From IMG/VR virus record IMGVR_UViG_2531839449_000046: a stretch of DNA of 41,869 nt; one strand, given 5' to 3'. The DNA is from a virus. Taxonomy: Duplodnaviria; Heunggongvirae; Uroviricota; Caudoviricetes. Below, one piece after another: positions 18,001-21,000 of the stretch. Made by a program: the position numbers. Within the stretch, counting starts at the first letter, position 1, and each line of letters opens with the position of its first letter.

Positions 18001-21000
18001 GCGCTGCAGCAGATTAAGGAGCGTGGCGCTTTACCGATGATTGATCGCGGTGATATTCGTCAGGCAATTGACCGTTGCAGCAATATCTGGGCTTCACTGC
18101 CGGGCGCTGGTTATGGTCAGTTCGAGCATAAGGCTGACAACCTGATTGCAAAATTCAAAGAAGCAGGCGGAACGGTCAGAGAGATTGAGGTATGAGCAGA
18201 GTAACCGCGATTATCTCCGCTCTGGTTATCTGCATCATCGTCTGCCTGTCATGGGCTGTTAATCATTACCGTGATAACGCCATGACCTACAAAGAGCAGC
18301 GCGATAAAGCCACATCCATCATCGCTGATATGCAGAAGCGTCAACGTGATGTAGCAGAACTCGACGCCAGATACACAAAGGAGCTTGCTGATGCTAACGC
18401 GACTATCGAAAGTCTCCGTGCTGATGTTTCTGCTGGTCGTAAGCGCCTGCAAGTCGCCGCCACCTGTGCAAAGTCAACGACCGGAGCCAGCAGCATGGGC
18501 GATGGAGAAAGCCCAAGACTTACAGCAGATGCTGAACTCAATTATTACCGTCTCCGAAGTGGAATCGACAGGATAACCGCGCAGGTTAACTACCTGCAGG
18601 AGTACATCAGGACTCAGTGCCTGAAATAATTTTTTTGCAAACCACAAAGTCCATTTAATGAGCCTCGCGAAAAGCGGGGCTTTTTTATGTCCGCAGTAAA
18701 CGCGCATCTCACGCGCATATTAACGAGAGCCTTTCAGTAAGCGAGCCTGAGAAATGCCGTTATAGGTGGCGACCTCTCTCGGGCGGCTTTTCTGTGAGAC
18801 AGGCTCACTTTCTAAAAGGTAAAGACGCTATGAATAATCATTCAGTTATTCCAGCCTTCGACTTCCGAGAAATGGTGCAAGCCAAAAACGGAGAGGTCGT
18901 TACCACATCCAGAAAAATTGCCAAGTACTTCGGCAAGCGACACGGTGATGTTCTCAGGAAAATCGAGCAGGTTAAGGCTGATTGCTCACGTGAGTTTAGC
19001 CAACGCAATTTTGCGTAGGCTGATTATATCGATGAGCAGGGCAAGGTTCGCCCGATGTACAGCCTGACGAAAGATGGCTGGATCATGGTTGTGATGGGGT
19101 TCACCGGGAAAGCTGCTGCGGCAATCAAGGAGAGCTATATCGCAGCATTCAACTGGATGGCAGAGCAACTGAGCCGCCGCATGGCAATTGGCGAAGAAAT
19201 GCAGCACCGCTACGCCATCAAAGAAACACGCTCAAAGCTGAAAGGTACGATCGGCAGTCGGTTAATGAACGAACGGAAGAAAGAGAAGCGCGTCCTGGCT
19301 GTCGAGCATGAATACATCTTGCAGGTGACACAGCCTGAACTGCTGATTAATTGAAGATGTCATTACAAAGCCTATCTACGGGTGGGCTTGATAATGAAAC
19401 CGGAGTTAATTTCTGGTCACTAATTAACGGCAGTACAGCGAAACAACCCAAGCCAGTAAGTGGGGAAATAACACTGGCAGCCACTGAAAGATGAACCTCC
19501 TGCCTTATGGCAAAAAAGATTCTTTGTGGTGGCGGACTGATGGAAAGACATCCTAATCAAGCAACCACTCCACAGGGTCATAATTATGAACGACCAGCAA
19601 ATCGAAAAAGAAATCGTTGAGAAAGGCAAAACGGAACCGCGAATCACCCCGCAGCACATCGAAGACGTGATTAAAAGCGAGCATTACTTTACTGCTTATG
19701 ATGGACGAAATGGTGCCATTTCCAGCAACGAATATTGTGGCAGGGAAAAACCAGAGGAAGGCGATCGTGATTTATCACCATTGAAGTTGCTCACTTTCTG
19801 CGTACTGGTGCTGAAGAATGGCTTCACCGTCACCGGAGAGAGTGCCTGTGCAAGCCAGGGAAACTTTGATGCAGAAATTGGTCGGAAGATTGCTCGGCAG
19901 AATGCTGTAAACAAAATCTGGATGCTCGAAGGTTACTTGCTGAAGCAGAAGCTAAGCGAACAGTAGTTATTACAAAAGCCATTCCCTACAGAGTGGCTTT
20001 GACAATGGCTTATACCCTACACGGGATAACTTAACTGATATCCCTTTTAACGGATAAACGGAGCCAACAATGGCAGAGATTATTCCCATGACTGAAGAAC
20101 AGAAATTCCAGTTAGAGATTTACAAACTGGTCATGAACCAGAACGCAGCCGCAGAAGAAGCATTTCAATTCATTGGCACTGACGAACTGAAGCTTGAGCT
20201 ATTCAAAATTCACTTCCAGTCAGGTGGCGCTAATTCAGATATCACGACCCGCACTATCGAAGCGGTGCGTAAATCGAAGGAAGCGTTAGACCTGTTCACT
20301 ACCGGAGTGTAAGAGATGACTGAACAAGAAATGCCGAGATACCAGTGCCACAAAAAAGTTCGCGCCCTGAAGATTGGCTCTATAGAACATAAGCCAAACC
20401 CAGATCAGCCTGGTAAGTCTGGCTCTTCTAGTTATGGGGCAATTATTCATCCGGATGATAAGAAATACGCAGCATTTGATGTTAGCGCGGAATATATCTG
20501 TAAGCACCGACCAATGTCTGGAGGCTATTACGTTGTCTATGAGGATGGATATGAATCATATTCTCCTGCTGAGGTATTTGAGTCTGGATATTCAAAATTA
20601 TAGGAATCCTCTATGACAAGCGTCGTTGATCTTGGTAAGGAGAAGAAATTCCCAATTACTCAAGAGCTATACGAGAGGCTGGAAAGCGTCATCCATGATT
20701 ACGATGGTGAAATCAGTTTATGCGAGGCGATTGGCACACTCGAATTGCTGAAGCAGTCACTGATTGAAGGCGCGAAAGAGTCCTCAGCCTGAAATAACAA
20801 CTAAGTGAGATGAATATGGCGACTGAACCAAAAGCTGGTCGCCCCTCTGATTATATGCCGGAGGTGGCTGACGATATCTGCTCGTTGCTTTCTTCTGGCG
20901 AAAGTTTGCTGAAAGTATGTAAGCGTCCTGGTATGCCGGATAAGTCCACTGTTTTCCGCTGGTTGGCAAAGCATGAGGATTTTCGCGACAAGTACGCGAA

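What the first reader, a model, noticed from the sequence alone, without database searches (positions are those of the whole stretch)
18830..19354. rha-like gene carries a single in-frame amber codon
The ORF from 18830 ends at TAG 19016-19018, and the same frame continues without interruption for 112 codons. The two halves form one 174-aa protein. A single nonsense codon suggests recent inactivation, or expression only in an amber-suppressor host.
Basis: seen in the sequence. Interest (0 to 1): 0.45.

Follow-up and report, generated by a model that had tools for sequence, protein, structure and literature searches.

The report
Nonsense-mutated rha gene in a prophage
A non-essential phage regulator gene (rha) in a P22-like E. 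coli prophage has been knocked out by a single C-to-A change that turns serine codon 63 into a stop; this is an ordinary, recent pseudogene.

Summary
The ORF from 18830 stops at TAG 19016-19018, and the same frame runs on to TGA 19352-19354. Read through, it gives a 174-aa Rha-family protein (Pfam PF09669), and the TAG lies inside that domain. The intact protein WP_001059339.1 in E. coli E2863 differs from the window gene by one base, 19017 C->A, which changes TCG (Ser63) to TAG. The surrounding prophages differ at only 8 of 15,550 bases, so the lesion is recent.

The intact form is on at least 1000 public contigs, against about 20 for the amber form. The amber allele is absent from 5,426 complete E. 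coli genomes. It is not a sequencing error: several independent assemblies of the same prophage carry it. It also occurs on a second rha haplotype in a lambda-like prophage, probably moved there by recombination.

The window encodes no suppressor tRNA, and the host genome could not be checked. A serine-inserting suppressor (supD), not supE, would restore the wild-type protein. The prophage shows other decay: two IS copies and a frameshifted acyltransferase.

Verdict: a real but ordinary loss-of-function allele of a known accessory phage gene.

The parts
18660..18692 (+). Terminator-like hairpin and T run between Rz and rha
   Evidence: stem 18660-18682, 9 pairs, followed by TTTTAT. The equivalent site is annotated as a terminator in phi80 and HK639.
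18693..18829 (+). Conserved rha leader. It contains an alternative in-frame GTG start at 18794 and AAAGG at 18815-18819, 10 nt before the ATG.
   Evidence: The leader is invariant in all five aligned sequences even where the upstream flanks differ. The GTG start is the one annotated in phiv205-1, HK639 and phi80. No sigma-70-like promoter was found and no credible Rfam match.
18830..19015 (+). N-terminal rha fragment, codons 1-62, carrying the first ~40 positions of the pRha domain
   Evidence: PF09669 profile positions 1-40, 34.4 bits.
19016..19018 (+). Amber codon TAG at codon 63, derived from TCG (Ser) by C->A at 19017
   Evidence: this is the only difference from the intact alleles in E2863 and WCHEC025943. 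Ser is also found in phiv205-1, 2B8, PhiR70_1 and HK639; phi80 has Pro.
19019..19354 (+). Remainder of rha in the same frame, codons 64-174 plus TGA, no longer translated from the rha start
19055..19354 (+). 99-aa ORF starting at Met76 that gene callers report as a separate 'rha protein'. Reinitiation here is possible (AAGG lies 8 nt upstream) but unproven.
   Evidence: PF09669 profile positions 55-90; named 'rha protein [Escherichia coli OK1180]'.

Best explanation
This is a real, heritable loss-of-function allele of the accessory phage gene rha. A single C->A transversion at 19017 changed serine codon 63 (TCG) to amber (TAG) in the middle of the pRha domain. Translation from the rha start therefore yields only a 62-aa peptide (74 aa from the GTG start). 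At most a 99-aa C-terminal piece could be made by reinitiation at Met76. Neither product contains a whole domain, so Rha activity is very probably lost (inferred). The mutation is recent, because nothing else in the gene has decayed. It persists because rha is dispensable: in phi80 and P22, Rha is known only for blocking phage growth in IHF-deficient hosts. The prophage is decaying in other ways too. The allele is passed down within a lineage of this P22-like prophage. Its presence on a second rha haplotype, in a lambda-like prophage, is most simply explained by short-patch recombination between lambdoid prophages (inferred).
For: The reading frame and TAG are shown directly. The TAG lies inside PF09669. 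There is a one-base difference from intact WP_001059339.1, with TCG as the ancestral codon. The E2863 prophage is 99.949% identical over 15,550 nt, 8 mismatches including the TAG. The intact 174-aa and 186-aa forms are each on at least 1000 contigs (capped), against 19 and 2 contigs for the peptides ending at the TAG. A 41-mer spanning the TAG has 0 hits in 5,426 complete E. coli genomes, while the TCG control hits 241 genomes. Independent assemblies of the same prophage carry the TAG and are 100% identical to the window: GCA_000188835.2, GCA_002515285.1, SRR10738410 and SRR29993477, the last with 19 similar places not shown. The same TAG is on haplotype G159/T462/T489 in an E2348/69-like lambda-type prophage, in L010, L133, L136, L142 and L148. 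No suppressor tRNA is present in the window. All 13 close phage homologs are uninterrupted. Other decay in the same prophage includes two 1310-bp IS3-family copies and a frameshifted acyltransferase. The known Rha role comes from PMC4936722, citing Mozola & Friedman 1985.
Against: Loss of function is inferred, not measured. The 99-aa C-terminal ORF has a weak Shine-Dalgarno-like AAGG and could be expressed with some residual or altered activity. The host genome could not be scanned for amber suppressors. The same base change on two haplotypes could also come from recurrent mutation rather than recombination. No sample was shown to carry both prophage types.
Confidence: 0.85

Rival explanations
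1. Conditional gene: the amber allele is expressed only in hosts that carry an amber suppressor tRNA. A serine-inserting supD would restore the exact wild-type protein, and the following G gives a favourable suppression context.
For: The codon is TAG followed by G, and the ancestral residue is Ser. The allele persists in about 20 assemblies without further decay.
Against: The window's only tRNAs are Asn(GTT) and Thr(TGT). The TAG is not conserved, and the intact form outnumbers it by at least 50 to 1. No other gene in the window shows a homology-backed in-frame TAG; one search lists only chance-level patterns. From general knowledge, natural E. coli isolates with efficient amber suppressors are rare. 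The lack of further decay is equally expected for a recent neutral mutation.
Confidence: 0.04
2. Adaptive, independently recurrent loss: rha is costly to the lysogen or the phage, and the same C->A arose twice. A mutational hotspot may have favoured it, since the change extends a direct repeat from GGCTGATT to AGGCTGATT, matching a copy 42 bp upstream.
For: The TAG sits on two haplotypes, each one step from the wild-type allele of its own prophage backbone. Other independent lesions occur in near-identical alleles: delG184, only 4 nt away, and +A in the A run near nt 54. AGGCTGATT is present at 18975 and 19017.
Against: Seventy different single-base changes would create a stop in this gene, so the same change arising twice by independent loss has a probability of about 1/70 without a hotspot. 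Recombination among lambdoid prophages sharing this 99%-identical module explains the pattern with one event. Neither the TAG nor the delG184 41-mer was found in the complete genomes, 241 of which carry the wild-type 41-mer, which argues against strong selection for loss. The templated-mutation idea is speculation.
Confidence: 0.08
3. Functional split: the 62/74-aa N-terminal peptide and the 99-aa C-terminal ORF are two genuine genes.
For: Gene callers report both pieces. PHROGs holds small 'anti-repressor' families resembling Rha fragments, phrog_15204 and phrog_20738. A weak AAGG lies 8 nt before ATG 19055.
Against: The break falls inside a single Pfam domain. The intact allele differs by one base. 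All close phage homologs are single ORFs. The split form is rare.
Confidence: 0.02
4. Sequencing or assembly error.
For: C->A is a known oxidative-damage artefact type (general knowledge). No complete genome carries the allele.
Against: The same base is present in several independent NCBI, Logan (SRA) and ENA metagenome assemblies, on two different prophage backbones.
Confidence: 0.01

Closest known systems
Rha of phage phi80 (PHI80_62) and P22 rha/orf201; Pfam PF09669 Phage_pRha; NCBI 'Rha family transcriptional regulator' WP_001059339.1
   Same: Full-length PF09669 match when read through. It is 73.4% identical to phi80 Rha over 173 residues. It occupies the same map position, after the S-R-Rz lysis cassette and a terminator-like hairpin and before the packaging genes. 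It is one nucleotide from WP_001059339.1.
   Different: Interrupted by TAG at codon 63, so the full protein cannot be made without suppression. phi80 has Pro where the close relatives have Ser.
Other inactivated alleles of the same rha module (delG184 in a Nu1/GpA lambda-like prophage; +A near nt 54 in a gp3-terminase P22-like prophage)
   Same: They share the same ~99%-identical gene and leave the same 99-aa C-terminal ORF callable.
   Different: They are frameshifts rather than a nonsense codon, they lie in different prophage backbones, and they are independent events.
Classical laboratory amber mutants of lambdoid phages (e.g. lambda Sam7, P22 13-amH101; recalled from general knowledge)
   Same: A single sense-to-TAG change that would be conditionally suppressible.
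   Different: Those are selected in essential or lysis genes in suppressor strains. This one is in a dispensable gene, in natural isolates and metagenomes, with no evidence of a suppressor host.

Membership tests
Rha family / Pfam PF09669 Phage_pRha | Sequence match to the PF09669 profile above the gathering score | tested here: met
   99 bits against a cut-off of 29.9 for the read-through protein. The halves score 34.4 and 40.5 bits, covering profile positions 1-40 and 55-90.
Rha family / Pfam PF09669 Phage_pRha | One uninterrupted ORF encoding the whole domain | tested here: not met
   TAG at codon 63 lies inside the domain. This is a pseudogene of the family, not a functional member.
Rha family / Pfam PF09669 Phage_pRha | Position as in phi80 rha: downstream of the lysis genes and a terminator, upstream of the packaging genes | tested here: met
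Rha family / Pfam PF09669 Phage_pRha | Rha phenotype: blocks phage growth in IHF-deficient (himA/hip) hosts | not testable with these tools
   Known for phi80 and P22 from the literature (PMC4936722). It needs plating experiments.
Recent nonsense pseudogene | Orthologs carry a sense codon at the site, and the allele is otherwise near-identical to intact alleles | tested here: met
   single C->A difference; 8 mismatches in 15,550 nt; intact form on at least 1000 contigs.
Programmed stop-codon read-through or stop-codon reassignment | The stop codon is conserved at the site among homologs | tested here: not met
   homologs have Ser or Pro, and the TAG is rare.
Programmed stop-codon read-through or stop-codon reassignment | A suppressor tRNA is carried by the element, or in-frame TAGs occur in several of its genes | tested here: not met
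   (only tRNA-Asn and tRNA-Thr). One search shows no other homology-backed in-frame TAG.
Suppressor-dependent conditional allele | The host encodes a tRNA with a CUA anticodon | not testable with these tools
   The probable host genome (E. coli OK1180, GCA_000188835.2) could not be fetched whole. The genome collection holds only species representatives.

The most novel reading that the evidence does not exclude
The identical Ser63->amber change on two rha haplotypes in two unrelated prophage backbones, with a delG184 frameshift only 4 nt away in a third, could mark a mutational hotspot. It might be templated by the AGGCTGATT direct repeat 42 bp upstream. Alternatively it could reflect repeated selection for switching off Rha in lysogens, rather than one mutation spread by recombination.
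Probability: 0.1. Interest if true: 0.3.

Novelty: already known. Interest (0 to 1): 0.1.

Why it matters
It matters little beyond annotation. The two ORFs at 18830-19015 and 19055-19354 should be annotated as one rha pseudogene (Ser63amber), not as two genes. It is a clean natural example of a very recent nonsense mutation in a dispensable phage accessory gene, with the wild-type counterpart one base away. It could serve as a natural rha-null allele for asking what Rha does in P22-like and lambda-like prophages. The shared allele on two prophage backbones also illustrates exchange of short modules among co-circulating lambdoid prophages.

Tried and rejected
- **Chance pattern.** A single stop between two long open stretches occurs 45 times in the window, so the pattern alone was rejected as evidence. 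Homology carries the case.
- **Sequencing error.** Rejected, because independent assemblies carry the allele.
- **Short contigs L143-L146 and L150.** They seemed to carry the truncated peptide, but they turned out to be contig-end truncations. They either have C at nt 188 or stop before it, so they were excluded from the count of amber carriers.
- **Quasi-palindrome ACGCAA-TT-TTGCGT.** It lies just upstream of the site, but extending the palindrome would need T, not A (read from the sequence).
- **Exact-pattern scans for the TAG allele.** GTDB representatives, metagenome contigs, phages and complete E. coli genomes found nothing. IMG/VR gave one contig.
- **delG184 41-mer.** Absent from complete genomes, after the query string was verified against L132.
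- **PDB sequence search.** No solved relative.
- **Rfam on the conserved leader.** Only a meaningless sub-threshold miRNA hit.
- **PMC13043305.** Its 'rha' matches were the word rhamnose.
- **PHROG fragment-like families**. Their member phages could not be traced. The tblastn search of phages showed no split close homolog.

Full report
**1. The observation**

The sequence is as described. ATG 18830 opens 62 sense codons that end at TAG 19016-19018. The same frame continues for 111 sense codons to TGA 19352-19354. If the TAG were decoded, the product would be 174 aa. An in-frame GTG at 18794 would add 12 residues.

The pattern is not statistically special on its own. The window contains 45 places where one stop separates two open stretches of at least 55 codons. 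Homology is what makes this case real. The read-through protein matches Pfam PF09669 (Phage_pRha) over residues 25-111, profile positions 1-90 of 91, with 99 bits and E 2e-28. The two halves match profile positions 1-40 and 55-90 in register, so the stop lies inside a single domain. PHROGs gives phrog_518, 'Rha-like transcriptional regulator', at E 4e-78.

**2. Ancestral codon and age**

The closest phage relatives all have one uninterrupted ORF with Ser at this position: phiv205-1, 2B8, PhiR70_1 and HK639. phi80 Rha has Pro. In complete E. coli genomes the best matches to window 18780-19400 are 99.8% identical. The single difference is 19017 C->A, which changes TCG (Ser63) to TAG. This holds against the intact 174-aa WP_001059339.1 in strains E2863 and WCHEC025943.

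The E2863 prophage, inserted between sbcB and dacD, is 99.949% identical to the window over 15,550 nt (window 12155-27704). That is 8 mismatches, one of them the TAG. The gene shows no further decay, so the lesion is recent.

**3. Frequency and reality of the allele**

I used a 41-mer in which every 28-base seed word spans the TAG. It has no match in 5,426 complete E. coli genomes or in 50,697 phage records. The control 41-mer with TCG matches 241 genomes. Exact-pattern scans found nothing in GTDB species representatives or in JGI metagenome contigs, and found one IMG/VR contig.

In the 15-billion-protein collection the counts are as follows:

| Product | Contigs |
|---|---|
| Intact 174-aa form | at least 1000 (capped) |
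| Intact 186-aa form (GTG start) | at least 1000 (capped) |
| 74-aa peptide ending at the TAG | 19 |
| 62-aa peptide ending at the TAG | 2 |
| 99-aa C-terminal ORF | 127 |

The 99-aa ORF is named, among others, 'rha protein [Escherichia coli OK1180]'.

Locus L137 (GCA_000188835.2, contig ADUQ01000080.1) is 100% identical to window 13055-25354 and is probably the source of the window. The same prophage with the same TAG appears in GCA_002515285.1, SRR10738410 and SRR29993477, the last with 19 similar places that were not shown and not individually checked. The allele is therefore real and inherited, and it is rare. Five short contigs that seemed to carry the truncated peptide are only contig-end truncations and were excluded.

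**4. A twist: two backgrounds**

The IMG/VR contig and four others (L133, L136, L142, L148) carry the same TAG in a different phage. That phage is lambda-like, with DUF1441 and GpA-type terminase genes, and is about 99% identical to a prophage of EPEC E2348/69. Their rha haplotype differs from the window's at three synonymous sites: G159/T462/T489 versus A/C/C. Each amber allele is one step from the wild-type allele of its own backbone.

All four combinations of site 159 and site 188 exist, and these sites are only 29 nt apart. This needs either recombination or recurrent mutation. Seventy different single-base changes could create a stop in this gene. An identical independent hit is therefore unlikely, about 1/70, unless the site is a hotspot. 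A short conversion tract between lambdoid prophages sharing this 99%-identical ~800-bp module is the simpler explanation, though it is inferred.

I note as speculation that the mutation lengthens a direct repeat from GGCTGATT to AGGCTGATT, with copies at 18975 and 19017.

Other lesions occur in near-identical alleles. delG184 is found in a Nu1/GpA lambda-like prophage, and +A in the A run near nt 54 is found in another P22-like prophage. These are also rare, and the delG184 41-mer is absent from complete genomes.

**5. Context**

The window is a P22-like (Lederbergvirus-type) prophage:
- CI-like repressor at 6733-7434
- DnaB-type helicase
- Q antiterminator
- tRNA-Asn and tRNA-Thr at 17014-17169
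- lambda-type S, R and Rz at 17412-18629
- rha
- gp49-like gene
- Sf6-type small terminase at 20810-21238
- P22-type portal and coat
- tailspike at 38825-40762

A terminator-like hairpin at 18660-18682 precedes rha, at the place annotated as a terminator in phi80 and HK639. No sigma-70-like promoter was found. The slot between Rz and the packaging genes is mosaic: other phages carry KilA-N, GIY-YIG or HNH genes there, between the same conserved flanks.

The prophage shows other damage. It has two 1310-bp IS3-family (IS1203-like) copies at 10846-12155 and 35201-36510, and a frameshifted acyltransferase at the right end.

**6. Mechanism**

*Shown.* A C->A transversion creates a stop inside the pRha domain. 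There is no suppressor tRNA in the element. The intact form is the norm.

*Inferred.* Rha activity is lost. At most a 62/74-aa N-terminal peptide is made, plus possibly a 99-aa reinitiation product from ATG 19055, where AAGG lies 8 nt upstream.

*From the literature* (PMC4936722, citing Mozola & Friedman 1985). Rha of phi80 and the late-operon rha (orf201) of P22 are harmful to lytic growth when the host lacks IHF. An rha-null phage would therefore be expected to grow on IHF-deficient hosts and otherwise be unaffected.

*From general knowledge of lambda Q.* Polarity on the downstream packaging genes is unlikely, because late transcription is Q-antiterminated.

**7. The suppressor idea**

Nothing supports it. 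The ancestral residue is Ser, so supD rather than supE would restore the native protein. The host genome could not be scanned, and this remains the one open check.

**8. Verdict**

The second, a suppressor-dependent gene, is unsupported. This is an ordinary nonsense pseudogene of a known, dispensable phage gene. The only mildly interesting feature is that the same allele sits on two prophage backbones. Interest is low.

Noticed in passing
window 10846-12155 (-) and 35201-36510 (+): There are two copies of a 1310-bp IS3-family element (IS1203-like; rve and HTH_21 transposase domains), 99.92% identical to each other and in inverted orientation. The first lies just after the helicase gene, inside a small ORF that is intact in E2863. 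The second lies between the ejection-protein genes and the tailspike region. E2863 has one copy at a different place, in gp4.
   Followed up: partly
window about 41700-41869 and 40803-41711 (-): The acyltransferase (PF01757, O-antigen acetylase-like) at the right end is frameshifted near codon 52. Its first ~53 codons are in another frame and end in stops. The E2863 counterpart is also annotated as two CDS.
   Followed up: partly
window 17014-17088 and 17094-17169 (+): tRNA-Asn(GTT) and tRNA-Thr(TGT) lie between the Q antiterminator gene and the holin gene. The same pair is present in E2863 and IMT5155 prophages. Neither is a suppressor.
   Followed up: partly
window 18693-18829: The ~140-nt leader upstream of rha is invariant across phages whose neighbouring sequence differs. 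The 12 codons after the GTG at 18794 are also identical in protein even in phi80, which is 81% identical in DNA overall. This could be a true N-terminal extension or a conserved regulatory region; IHF control of rha is reported in the literature. No Rfam family or sigma-70-like promoter matched.
   Followed up: partly
L132, L134, L135, L138, L140 (rha nt 184); L139 (rha nt ~54): Other independent knock-outs of the same rha allele exist: delG184, only 4 nt from the amber site, and +A in an A run. They lie in different prophage backbones and are absent from complete RefSeq E. coli genomes.
   Followed up: partly
window 18975-18983 and 19017-19025: The amber mutation turns an 8-nt direct repeat (GGCTGATT) into a 9-nt one (AGGCTGATT). 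This is a possible but speculative template for a recurrent mutation.
   Followed up: no
window 17412-18629 versus 20810 onward: The module combination is mosaic: a lambda-type S107/R/Rz lysis cassette sits next to an Sf6-type small terminase and P22-type head genes. The Rz-to-terminase slot holds rha here but KilA-N, GIY-YIG or HNH genes in related phages (HK620, HK106, HK544, phiv205-1).
   Followed up: partly
L140 (GCA_045573185.1): This 4.9-Mb contig has its GpA terminase and portal genes each split into several pieces. That suggests an indel-rich (long-read-only) assembly, so lesions seen only there should not be trusted.
   Followed up: no
PHROGs phrog_15204 and phrog_20738: These small 'anti-repressor' families have profiles that match only residues 1-64 or 82-154 of Rha. 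They may be built from fragments of split rha genes in sequenced phages. Their members could not be inspected.
   Followed up: no
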